From NCBI GenBank assembly GCA_020848055.1, contig JADLBB010000185.1, positions 1 through 56,901 of the forward strand: DNA of 56,901 nt, given 5' to 3'. The position numbers were made by a program, and so were the translations under genes. The notes under the pieces were generated by a model. That model ran no database searches. It worked only from the letters and a program-made list of their open reading frames with translations, and was not told the DNA's origin. Positions within the stretch are counted from its first letter, which is position 1, and every line of letters begins with the position of its first letter. The stretch is from Chloroflexota bacterium. Its GTDB lineage: Bacteria; Chloroflexota; Limnocylindria; QHBO01. This document shows positions 1 to 56,901 of this stretch, in pieces.

Positions 1-127
1 CTACACGGGCGTTCGGTCGGAGATAACAATTACATATCAGGATCAGTACGCATTTGGGTCCTTGAAACTTAGCAGGAACGTGCGTGCAATGATCTTGAAA
101 TCGAGGAGCAACGACCAATTTTCAATA
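1..127. repeat. Terminal identity, copy 1 (identical to 56775-56901)
   Basis: Read base by base: ctacacgggcgttcgg...caattttcaata occurs at both ends. The repeat begins exactly at base 1 and ends exactly at the last base. Confidence 0.95.
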
Positions 128-129
128 GA

Positions 130-157
130 GGGTTGCTCCCGGCAGCAGCCCTTTTTT
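130..157 (+). terminator. Rho-independent terminator downstream of int (across the circular junction)
   Basis: 8-bp stem gggttgct/agcagccc with a 6-nt loop, followed by TTTTTT. Confidence 0.7.
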
Positions 158-257
158 CGGCTGGTTGAGATGACAGGGAGGGCGGTACCACGAGGTACGG
201 CTCCAGTTCCCCCGCCCGCTTCGCCGCTGCGCAACTCAAGCTCTCACGGAGCATAAC

Positions 258-665
258 ATGACCCAGGACGCCCTACCCCGCGAGCAGACAGCCAGCACTC
301 CGGCGGTGCCACCGAGACCGGTCCGTCGGGTCCCTGCGCGCCGACTCGATGTTCTGCATTTCATTGCCAGCTTTATCGACTCCAATGGCTACCCGCCGAC
401 CATCCGTGAAATCGGCACGGGCTGCACGATTCTATCGACCAGCGTCGTCAATTACCACCTGGACAAGCTGGTCGCCGGCGGCTCGGTCGAGCGCGACGAC
501 TTCACGTCGCGCGGGCTGCGCGTCACCGACCTCGGGTGGGCGCAGCTCGGAATCGCCGTGCCCGGCGCAGAGTGCGGATGCCTCGTGTCGGCGGTTCGTG
601 CCGCAGTCGAGGCCGGCGAGATCCTGCCGGCCGGCGTCTTGGCTGCATACCGGGCGGTGGCCTGA
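258..665 (+). CDS. LexA-type winged-helix DNA-binding protein lacking the S24 peptidase domain (repressor-like)
   Basis: LDVLHFIASFIDSNGYPPTIREIG...STSVVNYHLDKLVAGGSVER...RGLRV matches the LexA N-terminal DNA-binding domain pattern. Only about 45 aa follow it, which is too short for the Ser/Lys autocleavage domain. GGAG lies 7 nt upstream of the ATG. Confidence 0.75.
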   Translation: MTQDALPREQTASTPAVPPRPVRRVPARRLDVLHFIASFIDSNGYPPTIREIGTGCTILSTSVVNYHLDKLVAGGSVERDDFTSRGLRVTDLGWAQLGIAVPGAECGCLVSAVRAAVEAGEILPAGVLAAYRAVA

Positions 666-946
666 TGGCCCGCCCGTTCCCGGTCTACCCGCCTCAGCTG
701 GCGTTCCTCGGCGTGATCGACAGGACGAGCCTGCTGCGCCGCGCGTGGTCGGACCAGGAGCTGCCGCCTGTGTACTTCGGCGTCGGCACGATCGACGACG
801 CGCTCAGCGAGGCCGACGCCGTCGGCGTGACCGCGGTGTGGTTCCGCGGGCGCGTGTGGACGCATGACGGCGGCAACGGATGGTCGACGGCGATGAGGGC
901 GGTGGAGCGATCAGTGCCGACGCGCCAGATGGCACTGGGGGTCTGA
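665..946 (+). CDS. Hypothetical protein, translationally coupled to the LexA-like gene
   Basis: The ATG overlaps the upstream TGA (TGATG). 93-aa ORF with normal composition. Confidence 0.55.
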   Translation: MARPFPVYPPQLAFLGVIDRTSLLRRAWSDQELPPVYFGVGTIDDALSEADAVGVTAVWFRGRVWTHDGGNGWSTAMRAVERSVPTRQMALGV

Positions 947-957
947 GGTGTACACGA

Positions 958-1029
958 TGCGCGGTGGAGCAGCGGTAGCTCGGGGGTCTCATACGCCCCA
1001 GGTCGCCGGTTCGAGTCCGGCCCGCGCAA
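958..1029 (+). tRNA. tRNA-Met (anticodon CAT); an Ile2/lysidine identity cannot be excluded
   Basis: Hand-folded cloverleaf. Acceptor tgcgcgg/ccgcgca, D arm gagc..gctc, anticodon stem ggggt/gcccc with loop ctCATac, T arm gccgg-ttcgagt-ccggc, discriminator A. No CCA is encoded. Confidence 0.85.
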
Positions 1030-1199
1030 CTACGTCGATTCTCGGTCTGGCCGAGAAGCCCCGCTGCGGTACGAGCCGCGACCTGGTAGTCGTGTTGGGA
1101 AGGCGGCGAGCCCCGGGCAGCGCTCGGAGGTCCAGCCGGTGGCACGAGGGCCGACCGCAGGGTCCGGACCAGCGCGCCGTCTTCCCGCACGGCGAGTTA

Positions 1200-1799
1200 T
1201 CAGCGCCTGGGAGCACGGTATCCGGCAGCCACAGCGTCCTCCGGCGTTGCGAAGCACTCCTCGGGCTGAGTGCGCTCGTAGTTCGGCGACGAGTAGTCGT
1301 GATAGATCCAGCCGTTGCTCCCGCGGTTGCCCTTCACTGGAAACTCCGCTGGGCATGCCGACCCTTGGGGCGCGCCGCTGCGCCTGGCGGGTGGTGGAGC
1401 CTGCGCAGGTTGCTCGACCGGTGGTGCTATCAGTGGCTGGATCGCCGCCGGCGGTGCCTCCGTGGGTAGCACCGGCACCGCGGTCGGCGGCACCGGCGCT
1501 TCCGTCGCCGGCTCTCTCGTCTCCGTCGGCGGTCGCGGCGTCCGCGTTGGCCCCGTGGTGCGCGTCGGCGCCGGCGTCCTCGAAGGCCGCGCCGTGTTCG
1601 TGGGTCGCGGCGTGGGCGTCGGTGCGTCAGGGAGGACCGTCGTCGCGACCGCGCCGCAGAACCAGCAGGCGAAGCACGGGATCAGCAGCGCGATCGCGAT
1701 CCCGCCGCGGCCGGCCTTCCAGAGGGCGAGGTACTTCGCCCAGGCGCCGACGGCGAACTGGCGGACGCGGACGATGGGCGGCTCGTTGACGGGCGTCAC
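1200..1799 (-). CDS. Membrane-anchored protein with a Pro/Thr-rich linker and a small C-terminal Cys-bounded domain (sunset-domain-like)
   Basis: N-terminal TM segment (GGIAIALLIPCFACWFCGAV), a long P/T/A linker, and the C-terminal motif CP..FPVKGNRGSNGWIYH..SPNYERT..ECF.TPEDAVAAGYR. GTG start with GAGGAG 7 nt upstream. Confidence 0.7.
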   Translation of the reverse strand: MTPVNEPPIVRVRQFAVGAWAKYLALWKAGRGGIAIALLIPCFACWFCGAVATTVLPDAPTPTPRPTNTARPSRTPAPTRTTGPTRTPRPPTETREPATEAPVPPTAVPVLPTEAPPAAIQPLIAPPVEQPAQAPPPARRSGAPQGSACPAEFPVKGNRGSNGWIYHDYSSPNYERTQPEECFATPEDAVAAGYRAPRR

Positions 1800-1851
1800 G
1801 GTGGGGCTCCTCGATGTGCGGTTGGTGCGGCGAGGTGGGCTAGGGGTCGGG

Positions 1852-2778
1852 TTACTTCGTGCATACGACCAGCGAAGCGGCGTCTATGTGCCACCACGTG
1901 CTCTGGAAGAAGTCGTTCTGTGCGGAAAAGTACAAGACGATCTCTTGCCATCCAGCGCGAAACTGCGCGGTCACGTCGAACGCTCGTGCGCGCCAGTCTC
2001 GGGGTCCCTCCTTGTTCCAGAGCAACTCGAGGTTGTGTCGACAATCCGAGCACCTGAGCACGTCGGGGTCCTGGACGTTGACGATGAGTGCGTCGGTCCG
2101 CTCCAGTTCGCCGACGGATCTGCCACGCAGCTGGTAGCGAACAGTTGCAGATACCAGCCGACCGGGAGGCGGGGGCACGATCCTATTGCTCTGGACGCGA
2201 GAGTACGAATCGTCGTCAGGCGGCCACATTTCCAGGAATCGGCTCCCCTCGAAGGGGGTGTCACCGGACCGGCCTGTTGTATCTGCTATGCCCTGGCCAC
2301 TTACATCCCAGAAGGCGAGGCCGTCCTCGAACCCTCCGTTGCGGATTTGCTCAGCACAGATTGGAGTGGGAGTGACGGCCGGGGTGGACGTGCTTGTTGC
2401 GGTCGCCATGTGAGTCGCGGTGGGCGTGCGCGTGGTGGTGGCCGTATGTGTGGCCGTGGATGTGAGGGCGATGAGGGTGGCCGCGACGGAGGTCTGAATG
2501 CGATCGGGCGTGTCGGTCGGCGTCGGAGCGCCGGCAGTGAGGGTGGCCGCCACAATCGTTCCCACGACGTCGGATGTGCCGGTTGCGGTCGGCGGGGGCG
2601 TCGCTGTAGGCGTGCGCGTGATCATCGCGGTGGGCACGTCGCGATAGGCGATCGCTCCGCGGGACAGGCTCGGCAAGTAGATTTTCGATTGCGTGTCGCC
2701 GGGCTGCTGCGCCGACACCCGAGTGCTGATGAATACGGCGGCTATGACGATGGCAACGACCCAACCTATGCTGCGCAT
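1852..2778 (-). CDS. Secreted protein: signal peptide, Thr/Pro linker and a C-terminal jelly-roll/CBM-like domain
   Basis: Start chosen at MRSIGWVVAIVIAAVFISTRVSAQQ (signal-peptide-like, GAGGA upstream). T/P/A-rich linker. The C-terminus reads ICAEQIRNGGFEDGLAFWDV, typical of CBM4/9-like galactose-binding folds. The longer 440-aa ORF was rejected. Confidence 0.65.
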   Translation of the reverse strand: MRSIGWVVAIVIAAVFISTRVSAQQPGDTQSKIYLPSLSRGAIAYRDVPTAMITRTPTATPPPTATGTSDVVGTIVAATLTAGAPTPTDTPDRIQTSVAATLIALTSTATHTATTTRTPTATHMATATSTSTPAVTPTPICAEQIRNGGFEDGLAFWDVSGQGIADTTGRSGDTPFEGSRFLEMWPPDDDSYSRVQSNRIVPPPPGRLVSATVRYQLRGRSVGELERTDALIVNVQDPDVLRCSDCRHNLELLWNKEGPRDWRARAFDVTAQFRAGWQEIVLYFSAQNDFFQSTWWHIDAASLVVCTK

Positions 2779-2905
2779 GATGGCATCCTCATTGTTCATC
2801 GACGGATCGCGGCAGATTGCCAGAGGACGACGGACCATGCAAGTGACCGAGGCAGCACCCTTGGTAATCGGTGGCAACCTCCACCCATTCGGTACAATCC
2901 CCGTC

Positions 2906-3184
2906 ATGTCCGAACGGAAACCCGACCACCGGGGCGTGACCGCCCAGCGCGCGATCCTCGCCGAGCTGCGCCGACGCGAGCGTGCCGAGCCGCCTTTGCA
3001 GGCTCCGTCACTGCGCGAACTCGCGGCGGCCATCGGTCTGACATACATGCCGACTCGGCGCCATGTAATCAAACTTGCCAGCGATGGCCTCGTCGCATGG
3101 CTGCCCGTTCCTCGCGGGAGATCGTCGGTTCTCTCTCTGACGATAGCCGGGCGCACAGCGGCCGACTTGTCCACAGGGGCTTGA
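2906..3184 (+). CDS. Winged-helix transcriptional regulator (MarR/LexA-like wHTH)
   Basis: AQRAILAELRRRERAEPPLQAPSLRELAAAIGLTYMPTRRHVIKLASDGLVAW. Divergent from the 1852-2778 operon. The start is uncertain (an alternative ATG lies at 2837). TACAAT lies 8 nt upstream of the 2906 ATG, so the transcript may be leaderless. Confidence 0.6.
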   Translation: MSERKPDHRGVTAQRAILAELRRRERAEPPLQAPSLRELAAAIGLTYMPTRRHVIKLASDGLVAWLPVPRGRSSVLSLTIAGRTAADLSTGA

Positions 3185-3209
3185 CGTCTGATTTAGTCTA
3201 TGGTACGCT
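3181..3209 (+). promoter_or_regulatory. Sigma70-type promoter for the rightward early operon
   Basis: TTGACG-N17-TACGCT, located upstream of the first early gene (3292). Confidence 0.5.
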
Positions 3210-13468: not shown

Positions 13469-13551
13469 GGGGTGTGCGCGACAAGTTACCCACTTCGTGA
13501 TAGTAATGTTGACGCGCTGTCGGCGTTATCAATCACTTAACATTTACCCAC

Positions 13552-13579
13552 TTGCTATCGTGCCCACACCGAGCAATAT
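13552..13579 (+). promoter_or_regulatory. Repeated phage promoter, copy B
   Basis: TTGCTA-N16-CAATAT within cttgctatcgtgcccacaccgagcaatatgaac. Confidence 0.65.
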
Positions 13580-13626
13580 GAACATCACAACGACCGACGT
13601 TGAATTGCACCCAAGGAGCACGAACG

Positions 13627-13998
13627 ATGACCACGACGCTAATGACAGAGACGCGCGAGATGCAGCTGGACTTCAGGATTCACGACGAGCGGGGCGACAC
13701 GGTTGCCAGCGCCGCAACGCAACTTCGCCTGCCGCGGCTGCTGGTGGACCACTTGCACCCGGAACGCTGGACGGCGGTGCTACGCGCTGCAATCGAAGCC
13801 GGCGCGAGCAACGCCGACTTCAACGACTCCCTTCAGATCAGCCTGGTCTTCACGCTGAGGGTCCCTGGTGGCCACGAGATCGGAGAGGGACACACCCTGA
13901 TCGAGCTGCCCTGGCTGCTCGCGACCTACATCCGGACCGACGCCTGGGGCGAACTTCTCACGAAGGTGATCGAGGACCAGCTGCTCCTGCCAGGGTAG
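13627..13998 (+). CDS. Small hypothetical protein (123 aa), cassette 1
   Basis: AAGGAG lies 8 nt upstream of the ATG. A 14-bp hairpin follows the gene. Confidence 0.65.
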   Translation: MTTTLMTETREMQLDFRIHDERGDTVASAATQLRLPRLLVDHLHPERWTAVLRAAIEAGASNADFNDSLQISLVFTLRVPGGHEIGEGHTLIELPWLLATYIRTDAWGELLTKVIEDQLLLPG

Positions 13999-14013
13999 GA
14001 AGCGACGGCCCAG

Positions 14014-14047
14014 CGGCGGGCGAGGATGAAGTGATCCTCGCCCGCCG
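14014..14047 (+). terminator. Hairpin terminator of cassette 1
   Basis: Perfect 14-bp stem cggcgggcgaggat/atcctcgcccgccg with a 6-nt loop. Confidence 0.55.
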
Positions 14048-14088
14048 ATGGCCGCCAAGCCCTTATCAATCTCTTATCAATTCAGGCC

Positions 14089-14116
14089 TTGCTATCGTCC
14101 CAAAACCGAGCAATAT
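14089..14116 (+). promoter_or_regulatory. Repeated phage promoter, copy C
   Basis: TTGCTA-N16-CAATAT within ccttgctatcgtcccaaaaccgagcaatatggac. Confidence 0.65.
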
Positions 14117-14163
14117 GGACACCAACGAAAGCGCACCGCGCGCGACACGAATGGAGGACGAGA

Positions 14164-14433
14164 ATGCAGACCTTGACCAGCGAGCGATGGCAGGAAGTGT
14201 TCGAGGGGGTGCAGATGGAGATGATCCTGATCGAGGAGAGCCTCGGCCGACTCCGGAAGCTGGTGGACGGAACCGGATACGAGAAGGAAGCCGATGCGAT
14301 CCTCTGGCATCTGGATGCCCTGACCACCACGGACCCGACGCGATTGGAGGCACAACCCGGATTGTGGTCAATCATCGAAGCGATCGGCGGACCGACAGCC
14401 GCATGGATGGCAGAGGCGAACGCGGACGAGTAG
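14164..14433 (+). CDS. Small acidic protein (89 aa), cassette 2; paralog of the cassette 3 protein
   Basis: GGAGG lies 7 nt upstream of the ATG. LTSERWQEV...ESLGRLRKLVDGTGYEKEADA aligns with LPTETWERI...EAIAKIEDALHGTGLARYADA from cassette 3. Confidence 0.65.
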   Translation: MQTLTSERWQEVFEGVQMEMILIEESLGRLRKLVDGTGYEKEADAILWHLDALTTTDPTRLEAQPGLWSIIEAIGGPTAAWMAEANADE

Positions 14434-14447
14434 CAGCCACCGAACCA

Positions 14448-14483
14448 ACCCGCAGGGCGCGACCAATGTGGCGCCCTGCGGGT
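14448..14483 (+). terminator. Hairpin terminator of cassette 2
   Basis: 13-bp stem acccgcagggcgc/gcgccctgcgggt with a 10-nt loop. It is near-identical to the hairpin at 14937. Confidence 0.55.
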
Positions 14484-14564
14484 CGTTCCGGTGGCGAAGA
14501 TCGCGCCCGCCCCCCAGGAAAACGACCGCTCCAAATACGTACCATATGTGGTGACGTACAGGCC

Positions 14565-14592
14565 TTGCTATCGTTCGTAAACCGAGCAATAT
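14565..14592 (+). promoter_or_regulatory. Repeated phage promoter, copy D
   Basis: TTGCTA-N16-CAATAT within ccttgctatcgttcgtaaaccgagcaatatgaac. Confidence 0.65.
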
Positions 14593-14639
14593 GAACGTCA
14601 CGACGCGCACGCGGTGCGCAGCACAAAGGAGCTAGGAAA

Positions 14640-14918
14640 GTGAACCTACCGACGGAGACCTGGGAGCGGATCGCCCTTCTTGAGGAGGCCGCGGACATGG
14701 TTTCGGAGGCCATCGCCAAGATTGAAGATGCGCTGCACGGAACGGGCCTCGCGAGATACGCCGACGCCTACCAGCTCGCCCAGCTCAAGATCCTCGCCTA
14801 CCCGAGTCACGGCTACCTCACACGCGACAAGGGGATCCACCATCTGATCGAGGACCTCAAGCAGGACGAGCGCGAGCAGCGCGAGGAGGAAGTGGACGAG
14901 GAGTACGAACCAGCCTGA
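14640..14918 (+). CDS. Small acidic protein (92 aa), cassette 3; paralog of the cassette 2 protein
   Basis: GTG start with AAGGAG 8 nt upstream. Very acidic C-terminus (DEREQREEEVDEEYEPA). Confidence 0.65.
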   Translation: MNLPTETWERIALLEEAADMVSEAIAKIEDALHGTGLARYADAYQLAQLKILAYPSHGYLTRDKGIHHLIEDLKQDEREQREEEVDEEYEPA

Positions 14919-14936
14919 TCCAGACCTACCGAATCA

Positions 14937-14972
14937 ACCAGCAGGGCGCGACACACGTGGCGCCCTGCTGGT
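14937..14972 (+). terminator. Hairpin terminator of cassette 3
   Basis: 13-bp stem accagcagggcgc/gcgccctgctggt with a 10-nt loop. Confidence 0.55.
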
Positions 14973-15006
14973 CGCTCCGGTGGGCGGCGACCGACGTTGC
15001 GATTGG

Positions 15007-46395: not shown

Positions 46396-46493
46396 TCTAT
46401 CACGGGGCCTCAAACAAGGGGCCTTGACCAGGCCGCCTGCATGGCCGTAATCTTCGCGCCTCGCCTGACCAGTTGCCTCCCGGAGCAAAATTA

Positions 46494-48452
46494 GTGAACG
46501 ACCCCATCGCGACCTCCTGGGCACACAAGCCCTCTCTCGGGCAGCTGACATTGCCAACCTATTCTGAACGATTCCTTGAGTCCTATGCCGGCAAGATTGT
46601 CACGTCACCGCTCGTGGCCCTGGTGGAATTGGTTGCCAATTCCTGGGATGCGGGCGCCGTTCTTGTTGACCTGACCTGGCCAGATGAAGGTCAGTCGACA
46701 TTTCGACTTTCCGACAATGGTGTCGGTATGAAACATGATGATGTGTGGGGCCGATGGCTCAATCTAAGCTACAACCGACAGAAGGCACAAGGCGAGAATG
46801 TCGTCTTTCCTCCAACAACGGAGCGCACGCATCGGAAAGCATTTGGGCGGAACGGCAAGGGAAGACTCGCGCTATTCGCGTACTGTGACCAATACGTTTT
46901 GACGACTTGGCGTGATGGTCTATTCAATTCGTATCGGGTTGCCCTCACCTCTGGCGGAACGGTGCCCTATAGCGTCGATCACATTGAGACTGGTGACAGA
47001 GACGGATCTGGCACAATGTTCGAAGGGACTCTTGTGAGAAACCATCTGTCACCTACGATGATGGCCCGCGAACTTGCGATGAGATTCATCATCGATCCAA
47101 AGTTTATGATTCAGGTAAACGGACGCAAGATTGACGCTGGCGACCAAGGCATTCCTACTACCGCGCATCCTTTTACGTCTGGTCCTTTCGACTTCGAGAT
47201 AAAGCTCTACGCCGGCTCCAAAAGCGGCCGCCTAAGTGGGTATCACGGGGTAGCATGGTGGGTGAACAGTCGACTGGTCGGCACGCCGTCTTGGAATCGC
47301 CTTGCAAAGGGTCGTCCATACTTGGACGCGCGCACGACATTCGCGAAGCGGCACACAATTATTGTGGAGGCAGACGGACTTGCCAATCATGTTCTCGACG
47401 ACTGGTCTGGATTTGACGAAGACGAAGTTACAACGAAGGCAATCGACGACGTAGAGGGATACGTTGCCGCGATCTGCCAATCGCTGGTAGCCGACCTTCA
47501 TCGCGAACAGAAGACGGATGTCCTTCGCGCCAATGCGGTCGAAATGCGCGCTCTCCCTCCAGGTTCGCGCCACGCAGTAGGCGAGCTGATTTCTGAAATG
47601 CAACGAAGGGTTCCCACGATCGACGAGGATGTCCTAAGTGCAACGGTGGCCGCTGCCTCCAACATCCTGAACGCGAGGTCCGGTCACGCACTACTCCGGC
47701 AACTGGCCGATCTGTCGCTTGATGATCTAGATGGACTGCATCGCCTTCTGGCGAACTGGACGGTTCAGGAAATCCGCATCATTGTTGACGAACTGCAGCG
47801 GCGACTGGATCTCGTCAAGAAGCTAGAAGAGGTGACCTCTCGATCCAGCGACGAACTCCACGAGGTCCAACCACTATTTGACACAGGATTGTGGATCTTT
47901 GGCCCTGAGTACGATGGCATTTCATTCATGTCCAATCGCGCCCTGGCCACTGTGATCAAGAAGTACTTCGCAAAGCAGATAGATGTAAGCCTCATTGAGG
48001 ATCCGGCATCGAGGCCAGACATTGTGGTCACGAGCGACATGTCACTTCGCGTGTTTGCGCGGGATCATTACGACGACACGTTTAATGTTAGCGGGTTTGA
48101 AACAGTGCTTCTACTTGAATTGAAGCGTGGAGGACATACAGTGAATGACAACAACGTGTTCCAGGCGATGAAGTACGCGGCCGAATTGCGTCGAACGAAT
48201 GCTGTACAAGCAGACACGAAAATCGTTTGCATGATATTGGGCAGCAAGATTGCTTGGGGCGTGGGTGAAATGCGGAAGCCGGAGCAGAACATCAGATGTC
48301 TTCCGCGCGACTTTCAGACGGTCCTTCGTCAGGCGCACGCACGGACGTTCAATATTCTTCGACAAATTGAGGACGCCAATGGAGGCGCTATTTACGACAG
48401 CGAAGTCGAGGCCGCGATCATGCAGGCTCCAATTCCCTTCGAAGAGATATAG
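46494..48452 (+). CDS. GHKL (Bergerat-fold, MORC/HATPase_c_3-like) ATPase fused to a C-terminal PD-(D/E)xK nuclease of Shedu/DUF4263 type
   Basis: N box ELVANSWDAGA, G1 box SDNGVGM, G2-like GRNGKGRLA, and GSGTMFEG. The C-terminus carries LFDTGLWIFGPEY, RPDIVV (Asp), LLLELKRG (Glu-x-Lys) and QAMKY (QxxxY). GC is much lower than the phage backbone. GGAG lies 8 nt upstream of the GTG at 46494 (an alternative TTG lies at 46473). Confidence 0.7.
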   Translation: MNDPIATSWAHKPSLGQLTLPTYSERFLESYAGKIVTSPLVALVELVANSWDAGAVLVDLTWPDEGQSTFRLSDNGVGMKHDDVWGRWLNLSYNRQKAQGENVVFPPTTERTHRKAFGRNGKGRLALFAYCDQYVLTTWRDGLFNSYRVALTSGGTVPYSVDHIETGDRDGSGTMFEGTLVRNHLSPTMMARELAMRFIIDPKFMIQVNGRKIDAGDQGIPTTAHPFTSGPFDFEIKLYAGSKSGRLSGYHGVAWWVNSRLVGTPSWNRLAKGRPYLDARTTFAKRHTIIVEADGLANHVLDDWSGFDEDEVTTKAIDDVEGYVAAICQSLVADLHREQKTDVLRANAVEMRALPPGSRHAVGELISEMQRRVPTIDEDVLSATVAAASNILNARSGHALLRQLADLSLDDLDGLHRLLANWTVQEIRIIVDELQRRLDLVKKLEEVTSRSSDELHEVQPLFDTGLWIFGPEYDGISFMSNRALATVIKKYFAKQIDVSLIEDPASRPDIVVTSDMSLRVFARDHYDDTFNVSGFETVLLLELKRGGHTVNDNNVFQAMKYAAELRRTNAVQADTKIVCMILGSKIAWGVGEMRKPEQNIRCLPRDFQTVLRQAHARTFNILRQIEDANGGAIYDSEVEAAIMQAPIPFEEI

Positions 48453-48505
48453 CAGGCTGCAACGTGTAGTCCCCAAGATTCGTCCGTCTGCCGGTTGCTT
48501 GCCAC

Positions 48506-48521
48506 CCGAACGCCCGTTCTA
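48506..48521. promoter_or_regulatory. LexA (Cheo-type) box upstream of the 84-aa gene
   Basis: ccGAAC-GCCC-GTTCta. The 14-mer GAACGCCCGTTCTA is identical to the one at 55694-55707. It lies between TTGCCA (48499) and TACTAT (48520). Confidence 0.55.
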
Positions 48522-48535
48522 CTATCCTCTCCCGC

Positions 48536-48790
48536 ATGCGCTCGTACGACCCGCCCCTCCCCATCCGCGCCCGCGTCGCAGTCGACGGCGCGCCCCACTC
48601 GTTCGTCCTGGACGGCGTGACCTACGTCGTCGAGACGATCGAGGAGGTCCGCGCGCCGTGCCTCGACTGGTGGACGGCGACGCCGGCGCACCGGACGTAC
48701 TACCTCGTCACGACGAACCGCGGGATGGTCGCCGAGCTCGTGCGGGACGAGGTGGCGGGGACGTGGGGGGTGGCGCGACGGTTGGATTGA
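48536..48790 (+). CDS. Small protein (84 aa), DUF6504-like by recollection
   Basis: ORF with high GC, unlike its neighbours. PHSFVLDGVTYVVETIEE....WW.......YYLVTTNRGMVAELVRDEVAGTWGVARRLD. No SD, and the -10-like TACTAT lies 10 nt upstream of the ATG, so the mRNA may be leaderless. Confidence 0.5.
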   Translation: MRSYDPPLPIRARVAVDGAPHSFVLDGVTYVVETIEEVRAPCLDWWTATPAHRTYYLVTTNRGMVAELVRDEVAGTWGVARRLD

Positions 48791-49080
48791 CCGCGTGGGC
48801 GAACCGTCACGGCGACTGTTGCGCCGTTGTGTACTCGATGGACCGCAGCCAGATCGTCAGGTGCCAATTGCACAGCCATTGGCTGGTACTGTCAGGCTGA
48901 GGCACTCAGTCGTCAGAAGTACTCGGCTCTGTGCCCGGTCCGACACGGCCGACACTTCCCACTGTCGGAGCATGCACTCGCGTTCTTCCGACCACTCGCA
49001 CCTGTCCGACCAGCTCGGGGGCGTACGAGATCTCACCCGCAACGTGCGTCGCCGATGACCGCAAGCGATAGGGGCCGTCG

Positions 49081-50268
49081 CTAAGGCTCACCGCTAGGTC
49101 CGTCTGTGGCCCCGTGGTCAGCTCCATCTGCACCTCGGCCTCCTCCCGCGATCAGCTGATCTGTCGATCGCCAACAGGCGCTCTTCTGGACACTCGTGAC
49201 GCGCAGCTCGGATGAGGGGAGTCGCTGCGCGTTGATCACTCCGCGCATCTCGAACCGACTCGCCCAACGGGCGCTCTCCATCAAGGCGAGCACGAGAGTG
49301 TAGTCAACCGGCGGCACCATGACAACTTCCAGTTTCTGAAGCACGTTCTGCAGAACCTGCTGTTGGACCTCAGGCGGCAATCCGGCCGGGATGTTCACCT
49401 GAGGAGCCGGGCCGAACAGCGCTGCTGCCGCTCCGGATGACGCCAGTTCTGAGGTCGGGTTGAACGGTTCGCGCGTATTTAGCTCGGCTTCGATGTCCTG
49501 CCACACTGCGGAAATCAGCCCCTCAAGGTCAGGCTCCGGCCTAATCACCTTCAACCCCATCTGTTCGGCCTCGGTTCGGCTCAAAGGGTACCCGTGTGCC
49601 TGGAATGTCTTGTTGAGCGCCTCCGCTATGTTGCGAGCCTGCTGAGCTTCAGCGTCGGACGCCATGTGCATACGGAGTAGCTTCTCTCCCATGCTGAGAG
49701 ATAGCTGCGTGCTGCGCGCCGCAACACCGATAGGGACGGCACCAACCTCTGAGCAGAGGAGCTCGAACACTCGTACAAGCTGGCCCTGATCAGTCAGGCC
49801 AACTGTGTTACGCGCAAAGTCGAGGAACGCGGCAGCATCTTCTGAACCGAACGCAGTCTGGGTGGCTGGCCCCTCGTCGCCTGACCGGCGTACAGAGGTT
49901 ATCTGGGGATCGATCGGCCCCAGGTTCCCGTAACGGTGCATGACAATCTCGTCTGCCCCGAGCGCGATGAGCGTGGCTGCACTGAAAGCCGCTTGAGGAA
50001 CCAGAACCGCGAAATGGTCCACCCTCTCGCGAATGTGGGACACCATGCGCCATGCCACAAGCGGATCGCCGCCGTTGCTCGCCAGTAGCAGGTCGAGGCA
50101 TGTTGCATCGGCCGGCAGTGCATCCAGCTGGCGGAGGAGCTCGCCGATCGCATCTGAGCTGATCTTGGCAGTTGCACCGGGCCGCGTGCCTGTGACGTAC
50201 GCGACCAATGGCCTTCCACGTATCTGCTCAATGTTGGAGTACAAGGCCATACGGCGTTCGATTCCCAT
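49081..50268 (-). CDS. SDH-family ClpP/crotonase-fold serine protease (S49/SppA-like)
   Basis: LDLLLASNGGDPLVAWRMVSHIRERVDHFAVLVPQAAFSAATLIALGADEIVMHRYGNLGPIDPQ matches the serine dehydrogenase proteinase family pattern. GGAGGG lies 10 nt upstream of the ATG at 50268 (the ORF extends to 50322). Confidence 0.7.
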   Translation of the reverse strand: MGIERRMALYSNIEQIRGRPLVAYVTGTRPGATAKISSDAIGELLRQLDALPADATCLDLLLASNGGDPLVAWRMVSHIRERVDHFAVLVPQAAFSAATLIALGADEIVMHRYGNLGPIDPQITSVRRSGDEGPATQTAFGSEDAAAFLDFARNTVGLTDQGQLVRVFELLCSEVGAVPIGVAARSTQLSLSMGEKLLRMHMASDAEAQQARNIAEALNKTFQAHGYPLSRTEAEQMGLKVIRPEPDLEGLISAVWQDIEAELNTREPFNPTSELASSGAAAALFGPAPQVNIPAGLPPEVQQQVLQNVLQKLEVVMVPPVDYTLVLALMESARWASRFEMRGVINAQRLPSSELRVTSVQKSACWRSTDQLIAGGGRGADGADHGATDGPSGEP

Positions 50269-50487
50269 GGTGTTGTTACCCTCCGCGAGGTTCTGCGGTG
50301 CATCGACAAGTGCGAATAGCATGATGCGCCACCATGCGATTCAAATCCAACGGCAGCGGAACCTGGCAGCGCAGCGACTGGAGGGTCCTGAGAAACGCTC
50401 CCGTAGTACGCTCTCCGATCCCAGCCGCCTTGCCCCCAGCCTCCGCCCCAGGTATAACCCCGCGCCACCCTGGAGGCCCGCCCCCAC

Positions 50488-54570: not shown

Positions 54571-54613
54571 TTGCCACCCCTGGCCGTGTCCGTACAATAG
54601 AACACCCGTTCTA
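54571..54613 (+). promoter_or_regulatory. Strong promoter overlapped by a perfect palindromic LexA-type box
   Basis: TTGCCA-N16-TACAAT. TAGAAC-ACCC-GTTCTA (54598-54613) starts at the last base of the -10 element. Confidence 0.65.
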
Positions 54614-54640
54614 ATTGTGCTTGCGCGAAGGGATTCGGCA

Positions 54641-54916
54641 ATGGCTCTCGGCACCGGCTCTGGAACTGTCCCCCACGGCGACGCTCCGGTGCGGCTCTTC
54701 ATCACCTGCGATGTCGGCCGCCAGCGCTTCAGCTTCCGGTCGTTCATCGGACCCTTCGGCGTCGACGAGGAGTCGACGTTGATCGAGCAGAGCGGCGTGG
54801 ACGACATCCACACTGAGGCGGTCCTCGCTGCAGCGTCGGAGTTCGCTCACGACCTCCGGACTACGATCGAGGCCATCCTTCGGCGCGATGCAGTGGAGGC
54901 GAACCAGGACCGGTGA
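54641..54916 (+). CDS. Small protein (91 aa) under the boxed promoter; antirepressor candidate
   Basis: AAGGGA upstream of the ATG at 54641 (the ORF opens at GTG 54617). No recognisable domain. Confidence 0.5.
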   Translation: MALGTGSGTVPHGDAPVRLFITCDVGRQRFSFRSFIGPFGVDEESTLIEQSGVDDIHTEAVLAAASEFAHDLRTTIEAILRRDAVEANQDR

Positions 54917-55006: not shown

Positions 55007-55033
55007 CGCGCTGTGTCACCGTGGGAGCCCTGG

Positions 55034-55657
55034 ATGAACAAGCGAATCCCGCCGGCACCGGCCGGCATGGCGCGCGACGAGTGGATCGCTCTCGAAACCG
55101 CGTCGCTCCTTGAGGCCTTCGGCGACGCCGACTTCGACGAGGCCCTCTGCCGCCGACTTGCCGCCCTCGAGCTCGACATCGACGTCGACACCGACGACGG
55201 CGGCCTATCGCCCGAAGAGCGCTTCAACGCCGAGATCCTCATGCACGAGGGCCTCGACAACGCCTGGGCCCGCCAGGTCGCACAGGCGCTCACGCGAGTT
55301 GACCTCGGCAAGCTGCTCATCGGCAGCCGCATCGCCGCCCAGGCGCTCGGCACGAACCGCAACACCATCCGCACGAACATGGTCGAGGACCGCCTCCCGG
55401 CCCGCATCGTCCACGTGGCTGAGGGTCGCCAGGAGGTCATCGCCTTCTCGACCGGCCGCGTCCTCTTCACGCGCGAGTGGCAGCGGCGCTACCCCCGCAC
55501 CGGCGGTCCCGTGAGCGGCTTCCCGCCGCGCGCGCCGTACAACGCGTCCCGCCGCCGGGTCGTGCGGACGGGCGTCCTCGACCGCGGCACCCTGGCTGAG
55601 ATGGACCGCGCCGGGGCGGCGCCAGCCAGTCCACGAGAGGACGGCACCGGCGCTTGA
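55034..55657 (+). CDS. Excisionase/RDF-like HTH protein (HTH_17/MerR-like)
   Basis: GGGAG lies 6 nt upstream of the ATG. LIGSRIAAQALGTNRNTIRTNMVEDRLPARIVHVAEGRQ fits the Xis-type HTH pattern. It lies directly upstream of int. Confidence 0.5.
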   Translation: MNKRIPPAPAGMARDEWIALETASLLEAFGDADFDEALCRRLAALELDIDVDTDDGGLSPEERFNAEILMHEGLDNAWARQVAQALTRVDLGKLLIGSRIAAQALGTNRNTIRTNMVEDRLPARIVHVAEGRQEVIAFSTGRVLFTREWQRRYPRTGGPVSGFPPRAPYNASRRRVVRTGVLDRGTLAEMDRAGAAPASPREDGTGA

Positions 55658-55707
55658 CGTGACCCGCGTAACGACTAGAATGGACGTTCTAGAGAACGCC
55701 CGTTCTA
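55654..55707 (+). promoter_or_regulatory. int promoter with two tandem LexA-type boxes
   Basis: TTGACG-N16-TAGAAT. Box 1 is TAGAAT-GGAC-GTTCTA (55676-55691, which includes the -10). Box 2 is GAGAAC-GCCC-GTTCTA (55692-55707). GGAGG and the ATG follow. Confidence 0.65.
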
Positions 55708-55720
55708 ATTTGGAGGTTGT

Positions 55721-56773
55721 ATGAACGCGCCGTCGCCTGACTCCACCGTCGCCGCCTACCTCGACTGGTGGGCCTCCACGCACGTCGCGCGCCTGCGCAC
55801 GAACACCCGCGAGAACTACCTGAAGGGCGTCGAACTCTACCGGCCGGAGCTGGGCAGCGTCCTCATGCGTGACCTCGGGCCGCAGCACCTGCAGCGGATT
55901 GTCGACGCCCAGGTCGAGGAAGCGCACTACTGCCCGAACACGATCCGGTTGTTCTTCGGCGTGATCCGCTCCGCCCTGCGCCGCGCGGCCGTCGAACACC
56001 GCCTGCTGGAGTACAACCCCGCACCGATGGTCCGGCTGCCATCACGCAACCCGGTCCGGTCCAAGGCCTTCGGCCGCGACGACGCCGTGGCGTTCATCAA
56101 CGAGGCCCTCGCTCCCGACGGCACGGGCGGGCGCCACTACCACGGCGTCATGCTGACGACGGCCATCAAGACCGGCATGCGCTTCGGCGAGCTGCGCGGC
56201 CTGCGGATCGACAACCTCGAGCTGCGCGACGCGCCGACCGGCAGCCTTGGAGGGATCGTCCGGATCTGTGAGCAGATCGCGTCCAACGTCTCGCGGGCCG
56301 AGTGGAGCGAGCCCAAGACCGTGGCCAGCCACCGCGAGATCCCGGTCTCGCCCGACCTCGCCGGCATCCTGCGGCGCCACCTCGAGCGGCTGGCCATCCA
56401 GCGGCGACGGGTCGGGACTCGGAAGTGGCAGGACAACCAGCTGGTGTTCCCGGCGCTCCGCGGCGGCCTGGTCATGAGCAAGGACCTGGCTTGGGCCAGA
56501 CGCACGATCGCCCTCTCGGCCGGCCTCTCACGGATCCCCACGATGCACTGTCTGCGTCATACCTATGCCACCCAATTGGCTAATGGACGCATCCGCCCTG
56601 AGGCTTTGCAGGAGGTCGTCGGGCACGCCGACATTCGGACCACGATGAACGTCTACTACGACGCGACCGAGGAGACGCTCGAAGAGGTCGCGGCCGCCGT
56701 GGCGGATTGGTCGCGTGAGGGGCTTGACAACAGACCACGCGCCGGATACAATGGACTTCGCCCGAACGGATGA
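55721..56773 (+). CDS. int: Tyrosine integrase
   Basis: N-terminal SAM-like core-binding domain. Catalytic residues are present in order: R (TGMRFGELRGL), K, HCLRH (H-x-x-R), GHADIRTT (H) and NVYYD (Y). Confidence 0.9.
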   Translation: MNAPSPDSTVAAYLDWWASTHVARLRTNTRENYLKGVELYRPELGSVLMRDLGPQHLQRIVDAQVEEAHYCPNTIRLFFGVIRSALRRAAVEHRLLEYNPAPMVRLPSRNPVRSKAFGRDDAVAFINEALAPDGTGGRHYHGVMLTTAIKTGMRFGELRGLRIDNLELRDAPTGSLGGIVRICEQIASNVSRAEWSEPKTVASHREIPVSPDLAGILRRHLERLAIQRRRVGTRKWQDNQLVFPALRGGLVMSKDLAWARRTIALSAGLSRIPTMHCLRHTYATQLANGRIRPEALQEVVGHADIRTTMNVYYDATEETLEEVAAAVADWSREGLDNRPRAGYNGLRPNG

Positions 56774-56774
56774 T

Positions 56775-56901
56775 CTACACGGGCGTTCGGTCGGAGATAA
56801 CAATTACATATCAGGATCAGTACGCATTTGGGTCCTTGAAACTTAGCAGGAACGTGCGTGCAATGATCTTGAAATCGAGGAGCAACGACCAATTTTCAAT
56901 A
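56775..56901. repeat. Terminal identity, copy 2 (identical to 1-127)
   Basis: Same 127-mer as 1-127. It lies immediately downstream of the int stop codon (56773). Confidence 0.95.

What the first reader, a model, noticed from the sequence alone, without database searches (positions are those of the whole stretch)
258..665. Phage-encoded LexA DNA-binding domain without the autocleavage domain: a non-cleavable LexA mimic?
The protein matches the LexA N-terminal wHTH closely but stops about 45 aa after it. It therefore cannot undergo RecA-stimulated self-cleavage. It is encoded next to attP and int in a genome whose switch promoters carry LexA-type boxes. Two models follow. In the first it is the prophage repressor and uses the LexA operator code, which would then need an antirepressor for induction. 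In the second it competes with host LexA and rewires the SOS regulon of the lysogen.
Basis: partly seen in the sequence, partly recalled or inferred. Interest (0 to 1): 0.65.

Follow-up and report, generated by a model that had tools for sequence, protein, structure and literature searches.

The report
Phage LexA-head protein lacking protease domain
A temperate phage of sludge Chloroflexota encodes a small protein with the DNA-reading head of the host's SOS repressor LexA but no self-cutting domain; it probably sits on the same DNA boxes as LexA yet ignores the DNA-damage signal. Proteins of this kind are already known in phages.

Summary
ORF 258-665 is a real, selected 135-aa gene: a LexA-type winged HTH (residues 27-90) followed by a 45-aa helical tail. 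No S24 domain exists in any frame, and three independent assemblies share the same stop.

The window is a circular 56.8-kb temperate phage, probably of Anaerolineales from activated sludge. The tyrosine integrase lies directly upstream, and the likely attP crossover is at window ~39-43.

The five E. coli LexA base-contact positions are identical to those of Chloroflexota LexA. All 15 sampled LexA genes with that recognition helix carry a GAAC-N4-GTTC box upstream. Four such boxes overlap sigma70-like promoters here: ORF84, ORF99/ORF214 and int (two boxes). A fifth, weaker box follows a near-consensus promoter inside the int 3' end that reads across attP into this gene. A distant relative (L037) keeps the same layout.

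No boxes sit at the early promoters, so a role as maintenance repressor is poorly supported. My best reading is a RecA-insensitive LexA surrogate that feeds back on the phage's LexA-box regulon.

The architecture is not new: GIL01 gp6, PHROG families and many stand-alone LexA-head proteins in phages share it. New here are the retained host operator code, a conserved tail family and a promoter split by attP. No binding has been tested.

The parts
258..665 (+). LexA-like gene, 135 aa. Residues 1-26 form a variable Pro/Arg-rich extension, 27-90 the LexA-type wHTH, and 91-135 a conserved helical tail.
336..527 (+). Codons for the LexA-type winged HTH (residues 27-90). The recognition helix is STSVVNYHLDKL and the wing carries SRG.
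   Evidence: Pfam PF01726. Foldseek matches LexA at rmsd 0.9 A. Columns are invariant with Chloroflexota LexA.
528..662 (+). Codons for the C-terminal tail (residues 91-135), with helices 91-97, 104-118 and 125-134. It carries the family motif ..AVRxAxAAGExLPxxVVAALEAVA-COOH.
   Evidence: family; dN/dS 0.06-0.20; pLDDT ~88; no homology to the LexA CTD.
56724..56752 (+). Near-consensus sigma70-like promoter TTGACA-17-TACAAT inside the int 3' end. It reads across the int stop and attP toward the LexA-like gene.
   Evidence: 11 of 12 matches. The equivalent promoter in relative L037 is at 3033-3061.
56763..56776 (+). Weak LexA-type box CGAACGGATGATCT with one core mismatch, 10 nt after the -10 element of the promoter above.
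   Evidence: L037 has an exact box TGAACAACCGTTCC at the same spacing.
39..50 (.). Homology breakpoint, the probable attP crossover region. Relatives L001, L003 and L006 match the window only to the right of this point and carry cellular-type genes (SBP_bac_11, PAP2) to the left.
127..165 (+). Hairpin plus T-run (terminator-like) between int/attP and the LexA-like gene.
   Evidence: dG -18 to -21 kcal/mol. It is conserved in L001 and has a weaker analogue in L037.
185..198 (.). Perfect palindrome GTACCACGAGGTAC in the conserved leader. It is unique in the genome and its role is unknown.
665..946 (+). ORF2, 93 aa, whose start overlaps the LexA-like stop (TGATG). It has no family match and is absent from relatives L003-L007.
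958..1030 (+). tRNA-Met (CAT).
55721..56773 (+). Tyrosine integrase.
55654..55706 (+). int promoter TTGACG-16-TAGAAT with two adjacent LexA-type boxes: TAGAATGGACGTTCTA (55677-55690) and GAGAACGCCCGTTCTA (55693-55706).
54571..54612 (+). Promoter TTGCCA-16-TACAAT with box TAGAACACCCGTTCTA abutting the -10 and covering the predicted start site. It lies upstream of ORF99 (54617-54916) and ORF214 (55013-55657).
   Evidence: The arrangement is conserved in L037.
48499..48528 (+). Promoter TTGCCA-18-TATCCT with box CGAACGCCCGTTCT between -35 and -10, upstream of ORF84 (48536-48790, weak DUF6504 match).
1..127 (.). Direct terminal repeat, identical to 56775-56901, which marks a circular assembly of 56,774 bp.

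Best explanation
ORF 258-665 encodes a stand-alone LexA-type winged-HTH regulator. It belongs to an uncharacterised family found mainly in Chloroflexota (Anaerolineales) prophages. In this family a folded ~45-aa helical tail replaces the S24 protease/dimerisation domain of LexA.

Shown: the fold, the absence of S24, purifying selection on head and tail, and the existence of the family.

Inferred, step 1: the protein binds the host LexA box (TA)GAAC-N4-GTTC(TA). The reason is that its base-contacting positions and wing are those of Chloroflexota LexA.

Inferred, step 2: it binds as a dimer held by the tail, and RecA* cannot inactivate it.

Inferred, step 3: its targets in this phage are the five boxes that overlap or directly follow four promoters in the int-proximal arm. 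These promoters drive ORF84, ORF99 plus ORF214 (a possible excision or antirepression module), int, and the transcript that crosses attP into the LexA-like gene itself.

Proposed working. In the lysogen, host LexA keeps these promoters shut, and the LexA-like gene sits at attL, cut off from its strong promoter at attR. DNA damage removes host LexA and opens the int-arm promoters, and the prophage excises. Circularisation then re-joins the promoter to the gene. The RecA-proof LexA surrogate accumulates and re-closes the same boxes, and possibly host SOS boxes, in a cell that has no LexA. This makes it a Cro-like negative-feedback regulator that uses the LexA operator code, not the maintenance repressor.
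For: Identity and architecture.

Selection on head and tail.

Family with a conserved tail. In P0035 the tail is nearly identical while the head has diverged.

Operator code, protein side. The E. coli contact residues are S39, N41, A42, E44 and E45 (PMC3091678). They map to S60, S62, V63, N65 and Y66, which are invariant with 13 Chloroflexota LexA proteins.

Operator code, DNA side. All 15 full-length LexA genes with helix STSVVNY(H/N)L have an exact GAAC-N4-GTTC box within 300 nt upstream, often as TAGAAC..GTTCTA. The lexA promoters in L008, L009, L026 and L027 show the same.

Phage boxes. Three exact matches occur against 0.58 expected. All four strong boxes overlap predicted sigma70-like promoters.

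Gene's own control. Promoter 56724-56752 scores 11 of 12 and is followed by a near-box 10 nt after its -10. The distant relative L037 (ORF214 homologue 40% identical) keeps ORF86, ORF187, int and the LexA-like gene in order. Each of its three predicted promoters carries a box, including one in the int 3' end followed by an exact box at the same spacing. Relative L025 has two exact boxes just upstream of its LexA-like gene.

attP lies between promoter and gene.

No boxes at the early promoters at 2871 and 3181.

Host. The P0009 prophage sits in an Anaerolineales MAG, and high-GC Anaerolineales LexA has helix STSVVNYHLNKL. The source samples are wastewater and activated sludge.
Against: No binding, dimerisation or expression data exist; no RNA run holds the region.

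A terminator-like hairpin (127-165) lies between promoter 56724 and the gene and could stop that transcript.

The box after that promoter has a core mismatch (GATC instead of GTTC).

The attP position rests only on homology breakpoints in short contigs. Their left flanks differ from each other (SBP against PAP2), and no attR or attB was recovered.

The precedent, GIL01 gp6, is a truncated LexA homologue that evolved a different target site and activates transcription (PMC6182141). Conserved contact positions do not prove identical specificity.

A conserved unique palindrome GTACC-N4-GGTAC in the gene's own leader could be its real operator.

Isolated LexA heads bind DNA weakly unless dimerised, and dimerisation by the tail is only inferred.
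Confidence: 0.4

Rival explanations
1. Reader's model 1. The protein is the prophage's immunity (maintenance) repressor. It holds the lytic programme off through LexA-type operators and is inactivated by an antirepressor rather than by RecA.
For: The gene lies in its own small unit at the attL-proximal end of the prophage, a typical place for lysogeny-expressed genes. Family members carry N4-spaced palindromes in front of their own genes, as autoregulated repressors do (L025, L023, L013). No CI-like S24 repressor is detectable elsewhere in the window. The small box-controlled ORFs (ORF84, ORF99) could be antirepressors.
Against: No box lies at or near the early promoters (2871-2898, 3181-3209) or anywhere between 3 and 46 kb. 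The boxes sit on int, ORF99/ORF214 and ORF84. The gene is co-directional with the early genes, not divergent. Its strongest promoter would be severed from it by integration. Host LexA would bind the same boxes anyway.
Confidence: 0.17
2. gp6-like regulator. As in tectivirus GIL01, the truncated LexA homologue has its own target (for example the conserved GTACC-N4-GGTAC palindrome or another site). It acts as a transcription activator or timer of later genes, while host LexA alone occupies the GAAC boxes.
For: There is an experimental precedent: gp6 is a LexA DBD-only protein, 44% identical to host LexA, that binds GaCACAnnTGTGaC and activates the late promoter P3 in a phage whose promoters carry LexA boxes. 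A unique perfect palindrome at 185-198 is conserved in relatives. Relative L023 has variant boxes GTAAC-N4-GTTAC together with a changed recognition helix (STSVASYHLSKL). This suggests family members read operators of their own.
Against: All five contact positions and the wing are identical to host-phylum LexA. In gp6, by contrast, a new residue (K38) is critical for binding to its own, non-LexA site. The GTACC palindrome has no second copy in the genome. Every GAAC box here overlaps -35/-10/+1 elements, positions suited to repression.
Confidence: 0.2
3. Reader's model 2 in its strong form. The protein's main target is the host: it is expressed in the lysogen or early in infection as a dominant, uninducible LexA. 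It blunts the host SOS response, for example to block induction of rival prophages or SOS-triggered defences.
For: The protein has the same recognition residues as host LexA, and 15 of 15 host lexA genes of that helix type carry the same box. It lacks the RecA-responsive domain. In E. coli the free LexA N-terminal fragment must be degraded to avoid residual repression (own knowledge: Neher et al. 2003).
Against: The phage itself carries five such boxes in a conserved arrangement, including one in front of the gene. This points to a phage-internal circuit. There are no expression data. Permanent SOS blockade would also block this prophage's own box-controlled int and ORF99 promoters.
Confidence: 0.15
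4. The tail keeps the protein SOS-responsive. The motif AAGE(P)LP resembles the LexA Ala-Gly cleavage site, so the protein could be cut in trans by the host LexA catalytic domain with RecA*. Alternatively, the C-terminal ..AVA could act as a protease degron.
For: The tail motif EAGEILP / AAGEPLP is conserved in most family members and resembles VAAGEPL or IAAGEPIP of LexA. Intermolecular LexA cleavage is known (own knowledge: Kim and Little 1993).
Against: Profile-profile comparison aligns only the head, not the tail, with LexA. AF2 places the Ala-Gly at the end of a confidently predicted helix, not in a beta-loop. One sub-branch of the family lacks the Ala-Gly.
Confidence: 0.05

Closest known systems
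GIL01 gp6 (Bacillus thuringiensis tectivirus), a truncated LexA homologue (Fornelos et al. 2018, PMC6182141)
   Same: Both are phage-encoded and consist essentially of the LexA winged-HTH without the S24 domain. Both are clearly derived from host-type LexA (44% identity there, 50-61% here). Both sit in a temperate phage whose promoters carry host LexA boxes, including tandem boxes.
   Different: gp6 has only a 14-residue C-terminal extension that forms the wing, and no extra tail. It recognises a different palindrome (GaCACAnnTGTGaC) through K38 and activates the late promoter. The present protein keeps the host LexA contact residues and carries a conserved 45-aa helical tail. Its candidate sites overlap core promoter elements, a geometry suited to repression. 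It lies next to int and attP in an integrating siphovirus-like genome of Chloroflexota. No gp7-like LexA co-repressor was identified.
Canonical LexA (TIGR00498; PF01726 + PF00717)
   Same: Same DNA-binding fold. Its recognition helix STSVVNYHLDKL differs at one residue from that of high-GC Anaerolineales LexA (STSVVNYHLNKL). The gene is preceded by a LexA-type box, as lexA itself is.
   Different: It has no S24 catalytic or dimerisation domain and no Ser/Lys dyad. It scores 51 bits against the 111-bit equivalog cut-off. It cannot self-cleave.
Stand-alone LexA_DNA_bind proteins of phages (PHROG 3502, 24920 and 362; Mycobacterium phage Wildcat 77-aa protein; many uncultured Caudovirales and Tectiviridae entries)
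   Same: Same head-only architecture, widespread and already annotated as 'LexA repressor DNA-binding domain-containing protein'.
   Different: Most have diverged recognition helices and lack this tail. None apart from gp6 has, to my knowledge, a tested function.
LexA-controlled induction modules (coliphage 186 Tum, Gifsy/Fels antirepressors, N15 AntC) and LexA-controlled integrases (integron and CTX-type systems)
   Same: Host LexA boxes lie on phage promoters for small induction genes and for a recombinase, which couples excision and induction to SOS.
   Different: Those phages, as far as I know, do not encode a LexA-like protein of their own.
Integration-dependent immunity of mycobacteriophages (BPs, Brujita, Charlie; own knowledge: Broussard et al. 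2013)
   Same: A regulator gene lies next to int with attP in between or within, so integration changes how the regulator is made.
   Different: There attP lies inside the repressor ORF and removes a degradation tag. Here the putative crossover lies between a promoter and the intact ORF. The effect is inferred, not shown.

Membership tests
LexA repressor (TIGR00498 / PF01726+PF00717) | N-terminal LexA-type winged helix-turn-helix | tested here: met
   PF01726 at E=7.5e-14. Foldseek matches 3jso and 3k2z at rmsd 0.9-1.4 A.
LexA repressor (TIGR00498 / PF01726+PF00717) | C-terminal S24 peptidase domain with Ser/Lys dyad | tested here: not met
   No PF00717 hit. tblastn of five LexA proteins finds no CTD in any frame of the window. 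hhalign aligns the head only. The same stop codon occurs in three independent assemblies.
LexA repressor (TIGR00498 / PF01726+PF00717) | Ala-Gly cleavage site in a linker presented to the active site | tested here: inconclusive
   An Ala-Gly lies within EAGEILP of the tail and resembles AAGEPL. It is predicted at the end of a helix and is not aligned by hhalign.
LexA repressor (TIGR00498 / PF01726+PF00717) | Whole-protein score above the curated equivalog cut-off | tested here: not met
   51.1 bits against a cut-off of 110.95.
LexA repressor (TIGR00498 / PF01726+PF00717) | Binds the SOS box of its clade and autoregulates | not testable with these tools
   Indirect evidence only. Contact residues are identical to Chloroflexota LexA. 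A near-box follows the promoter that reads into the gene. Relatives L037 and L025 have exact boxes there.
gp6-type truncated LexA homologues of phages | [quoted passage not shown] | tested here: met
   The phage context includes integrase, tape measure and a DTR.
gp6-type truncated LexA homologues of phages | Recognises a site distinct from the host LexA box and activates a late promoter | not testable with these tools
   The sequence evidence leans the other way. Contact residues are retained and the candidate sites overlap -10/+1. A unique palindrome at 185-198 keeps the option open.
gp6-type truncated LexA homologues of phages | Sequence relationship to GIL01 gp6 itself | not tested
   The gp6 sequence was not compared directly. 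The BFVD hit to a Tectiviridae 'LexA DNA binding domain' protein shows 27% identity at fold level.
Lambda CI / S24-type phage repressors | HTH head plus S24 autocleavage domain | tested here: not met
   No S24 domain.
Integration-dependent immunity systems | attP inside the repressor ORF, so that integration truncates the protein | tested here: not met
   The homology breakpoint at window ~39-43 is 215 nt upstream of the start codon, and the ORF is intact in putative attL contigs L001 and L003.

The most novel reading that the evidence does not exclude
This reading proposes a circularisation-gated, RecA-proof LexA surrogate. The gene's near-consensus, LexA-box-controlled promoter is embedded in the 3' end of int, on the other side of attP. 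The protein would therefore be made only from the circular (infecting or freshly excised) genome. It would then re-close the phage's SOS-opened promoters (int, ORF99/ORF214, ORF84 and its own), and perhaps host SOS genes, in a cell whose own LexA has been destroyed. The conserved helical tail would supply dimerisation in place of the S24 domain. This would be a new way for a temperate phage to borrow the host's SOS operator code for both the 'on' and the 'off' step of induction.
Probability: 0.25. Interest if true: 0.7.

Novelty: new variant of a known kind. Interest (0 to 1): 0.45.

Why it matters
LexA-box control of prophage induction is usually described with the host repressor as the only reader of the boxes. 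This phage group appears to add a second, damage-blind reader with the same recognition residues.

If confirmed, this would show how a phage can end its own SOS-triggered excision programme, or damp the host SOS response, without depending on the return of host LexA. It would also assign a function to a sizeable uncharacterised protein family in Chloroflexota prophages, which are abundant in activated sludge.

It further gives a computational anchor for the Chloroflexota LexA box. The helix STSVVNY(H/N)L pairs with TAGAAC-N4-GTTCTA in 15 of 15 lexA genes examined.

Tried and rejected
A hidden S24 domain from a frameshift or assembly error is rejected.

ORF2 (665-946) as a split-off protease or partner is rejected. 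It has no family hit in Pfam, PHROGs, NCBIfam or PADLOC, it is absent from relatives L003-L007, and the downstream small ORFs of other relatives are not homologous to it.

The tail as a remnant of the LexA cleavage-site region or CTD has no profile support, and the tail is predicted helical.

An excisionase role for the LexA-like protein was considered because of its position next to int. It was dropped because the head is specifically LexA-type and retains the contact residues. ORF214 looks by eye like an HTH excisionase or RDF, but it matches no Pfam or PHROG family, so that label stays an inference.

Close phage relatives were sought in INPHARED, IMG/VR and GTDB genomes with the single protein; none were found.

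An exact-pattern search for the int 3' end in metagenome contigs, meant to capture attR, found nothing.

Contigs from four wastewater runs were laid on 1-1500 to look for attL junctions. Depth was too low to be informative.

No RNA runs hold the region.

The tRNA-Met was considered as attP. It is not supported, because homology with relatives breaks at ~39-43, not at the tRNA, and some relatives lack most of the tRNA.

A box regulon for GTACC-N4-GGTAC was sought; only one copy exists.

Full report
**What the window is.** The window is a circular assembly. Bases 1-127 repeat exactly at 56775-56901, giving a unit of 56,774 bp. It is about 69% GC and almost all genes lie on the + strand.

It encodes a tyrosine integrase (55721-56773), a Sak4-like ATPase, a ParB-methyltransferase and a 1995-aa tape-measure-sized ORF. 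A lower-GC island at 46-53 kb holds a BbrUII-like restriction enzyme, an SDH Clp-fold protease and a type IIG MmeI-like enzyme.

No close relative exists in INPHARED. The sequence occurs in wastewater and activated-sludge metagenomes.

**The observation.** ORF 258-665 (135 aa) matches Pfam LexA_DNA_bind at E=7.5e-14 over residues 27-86. It also matches PDB LexA sequences and the NCBIfam lexA equivalog, though only over model positions 5-70 and at 51 bits against a cut-off of 111.

AlphaFold models give the canonical three-helix, two-strand wing head at pLDDT above 90. [quoted passage not shown]

There is no S24 domain. Five full-length LexA queries hit only 351-536 in the six-frame translation of the whole window. 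The overlapping next ORF (665-946) matches no family. The same 135-aa ORF with the same stop is found in independent assemblies at 95% and 88% identity.

Nei-Gojobori estimates give these dN/dS values:
- head: 0.03-0.09
- tail: 0.06-0.20
- first 26 residues: 0.6-1.3

The head and the tail are therefore functional, and the N-terminal extension is probably disordered.

**Whose LexA head it is.** After the two near-identical proteins, the best database matches are full-length LexA proteins (213-219 aa, with S24). They are 50-61% identical over the head only, and every one that carries a source name is Chloroflexota (Anaerolineales, Anaerolineae, Ardenticatenaceae).

In the alignment, helix 2 (PPTIREIG), the recognition helix (STSVVNY.L..L) and the wing (SRG) are invariant between the phage proteins and 13 Chloroflexota LexA proteins.

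The E. coli base-contacting residues are Ser39, Asn41, Ala42, Glu44 and Glu45 (PMC3091678). Through the ungapped alignment they map to S60, S62, V63, N65 and Y66. All five lie in invariant columns.

High-GC (73-75%) Anaerolineales MAGs encode LexA with helix STSVVNYHLNKL, one residue different from the phage protein. A 154-aa stand-alone relative (P0009) lies at the edge of a syntenic prophage in an Anaerolineales MAG. The host is therefore most likely a high-GC member of the Anaerolineales or a neighbouring Chloroflexota group.

**The boxes.** The exact pattern GAAC-N4-GTTC occurs three times in the window against 0.58 expected. With flanks, four strong sites stand out: 48507, 54599, 55677 and 55693. 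Each overlaps a predicted sigma70-like promoter:
- TTGCCA-18-TATCCT in front of ORF84
- TTGCCA-16-TACAAT in front of ORF99 and ORF214
- TTGACG-16-TAGAAT, with two adjacent boxes, in front of int

I tested whether these are host-type LexA boxes. The lexA promoters of the closest homologues carry the same box between -35 and -10. In metagenome loci, 15 of 15 full-length LexA genes with helix STSVVNY(H/N)L have an exact box within 300 nt upstream, often as TAGAAC..GTTCTA like the phage boxes. By contrast, 42 of 42 with helix SPSTVHAHLA have the CGAAC..GTTCG flavour.

The link between this recognition helix and this box is therefore well supported by comparative genomics. The phage boxes are of the flavour matching its own protein and its presumed host.

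**Where the boxes are not.** The early region starts with a second small wHTH gene (2906-3184) behind a leaderless-looking promoter (2871-2898). Another promoter lies at 3181-3209. Neither carries a box, and no good box lies between 3 and 46 kb. The boxes control the int-proximal arm, not the entry into replication and morphogenesis.

**The gene's own control and attP.** The promoter scan found a near-consensus promoter, TTGACA-17-TACAAT (11 of 12), at 56724-56752. It lies inside the last codons of int and points across the int stop toward ORF 258. Ten nucleotides after its -10 lies CGAACGGATGATCT, a box with one core mismatch.

The only homologue of ORF214 (40% identity) lies on contig L037 (72% GC). 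L037 has the same gene order: a restriction-modification fragment, ORF86, ORF187, int, then a 121-aa LexA-like protein of the tail family, then small early ORFs. All three promoters predicted in L037 carry a box. One of them, TTGACG-17-TAGACT, overlaps the int stop and is followed after 10 nt by the exact box TGAACAACCGTTCC.

Other relatives show related arrangements:
- L025 has two exact boxes just upstream of its LexA-like gene.
- L023, whose recognition helix differs (STSVASYHLSKL), has GTAAC-N4-GTTAC palindromes there.
- An IMG/VR contig (L013) has int, then two TGAAC-N4-GTTCA boxes, then an operon containing a 106-aa LexA-head protein.

Box control of the LexA-like gene itself thus looks like a family trait.

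In contigs L001, L003 and L006, homology to the window begins at window ~39-43. To the left lie cellular-type genes (an SBP_bac_11 solute-binding protein in L001, a PAP2 phosphatase in L003). I read this as attL, which places the attP crossover between the promoter at 56724 and the gene. Integration would then sever the two.

A conserved hairpin plus T-run (127-165) also lies between them. It would insulate the gene from host read-through in the lysogen, and it could attenuate the phage transcript as well.

**The tail.** An exhaustive HMMER search shows that the protein belongs to a family of roughly 100-140-aa proteins. They combine this head with a conserved extreme C-terminus of the form ..AVRxAxAAGExLPxxVVAALEAVA. 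In P0035 the tail is nearly identical to the window's while the head has diverged.

With the family alignment, AlphaFold predicts helices 91-97, 104-118 and 125-134 at pLDDT of about 88. Profile-profile comparison with LexA aligns only the head. No solved or viral structure matches the tail.

I infer that the tail is a dimerisation or partner-binding module that replaces S24. Its resemblance to the LexA cleavage motif AAGEPL is noted but unsupported.

**What is known.** GIL01 gp6 is an experimentally characterised truncated LexA homologue. It consists of the DNA-binding domain only and is 44% identical to host LexA. It binds a different palindrome and activates the late promoter of a phage that is otherwise repressed by host LexA (PMC6182141).

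Stand-alone LexA heads are common in phage collections: PHROGs 3502, 24920 and 362, thirteen IMG/VR loci, and BFVD entries including Mycobacterium phage Wildcat and Tectiviridae proteins. The architecture itself is therefore not new.

Three things differ here. The protein retains the host's recognition residues. It carries the conserved tail. And a box regulon, preserved in a distant relative, includes int and the gene's own promoter across attP.

The most likely function is a RecA-insensitive, LexA-box-reading repressor acting within the phage's SOS-controlled int arm (confidence about 0.4). Maintenance repressor (0.17), gp6-like regulator with its own site (0.2) and host-directed SOS blocker (0.15) remain as live rivals.

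All statements about binding, dimerisation, timing and attP are inferences that simple in vitro tests could settle. I rate the finding a new variant of a known kind, with moderate interest.

Noticed in passing
window 1-127 and 56775-56901: An exact 127-nt direct terminal repeat shows the contig is a circular assembly of 56,774 bp, so int (55721-56773) and ORF 258 are true neighbours.
   Followed up: yes
window 674-1018; L003-L007: Relatives of the P0003 type lack ORF2 and the 5' four-fifths of tRNA-Met. The deletion or insertion junction is flanked by GGCCCGC. ORF2 and the tRNA are therefore an optional cassette.
   Followed up: partly
window 46473-53304: A lower-GC (58-66%) island holds a BbrUII/HgiDII-like restriction enzyme (HATPase_c_3), a reverse-strand SDH Clp-fold serine protease and a type IIG MmeI-like restriction-methylase. 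It is probably a prophage-borne defence island.
   Followed up: partly
window 48536-48790: An 84-aa ORF with a weak, sub-threshold DUF6504 match sits directly behind a LexA-box promoter. It could be an SOS-induced moron or an antirepressor.
   Followed up: partly
window 13526-14627 and 14439-14983: Three to four copies of a ~60-nt promoter-like repeat (CTTGCTATCGTnCCnAAACCGAGCAATATG) lie in front of small ORFs. A repeated GC-rich hairpin occurs at 14439-14494 and 14928-14983. These are possibly middle-gene promoters and terminators read by another factor.
   Followed up: no
window 2871-3184; L002 11876-12181: A second small wHTH protein (92 aa, weak HTH_24 / LexA_DNA_bind similarity) lies behind a promoter whose -10 ends 7 nt before the ATG (leaderless-looking). 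It is conserved in the Anaerolineales prophage L002 and is a candidate Cro/CI-type early regulator.
   Followed up: partly
window 185-198: The perfect palindrome GTACCACGAGGTAC lies in the leader of the LexA-like gene. It is conserved with one mismatch in L001 and L003, and it is the only good copy in the genome.
   Followed up: partly
window 43-257: The non-coding leader is 89% identical between relatives, more conserved than the first 26 codons of the gene. It includes the hairpin at 127-165 and may hold attP arm sites or a small RNA.
   Followed up: partly
window 1200-2797 (- strand): Two leftward genes encode a membrane-anchored protein with a Pro/Thr-rich linker and a secreted protein with a signal peptide and PT repeats. 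They are convergent with the LexA-like operon and look like lysogenic-conversion morons.
   Followed up: no
P0032, P0034, P0036: A 1076-aa protein ends in two tandem LexA heads plus an S24 domain. Proteins of 222-258 aa carry two tandem LexA heads without S24. These are unusual LexA-head architectures from metagenomes.
   Followed up: no
L038-L117 (metagenome loci): LexA recognition-helix type predicts the flanks of the autoregulatory box. Helix STSVVNY(H/N)L goes with (TA)GAAC-N4-GTTC(TA) in 15 of 15 loci. Helix SPSTVHAHLA goes with CGAAC-N4-GTTCG in 42 of 42 loci.
   Followed up: yes
window 984-1023; runs X1-X3: Other contigs in the same wastewater runs carry a different tRNA whose 3' 40 nt match the phage tRNA-Met with 3 mismatches. 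This is probably a host tRNA.
   Followed up: no
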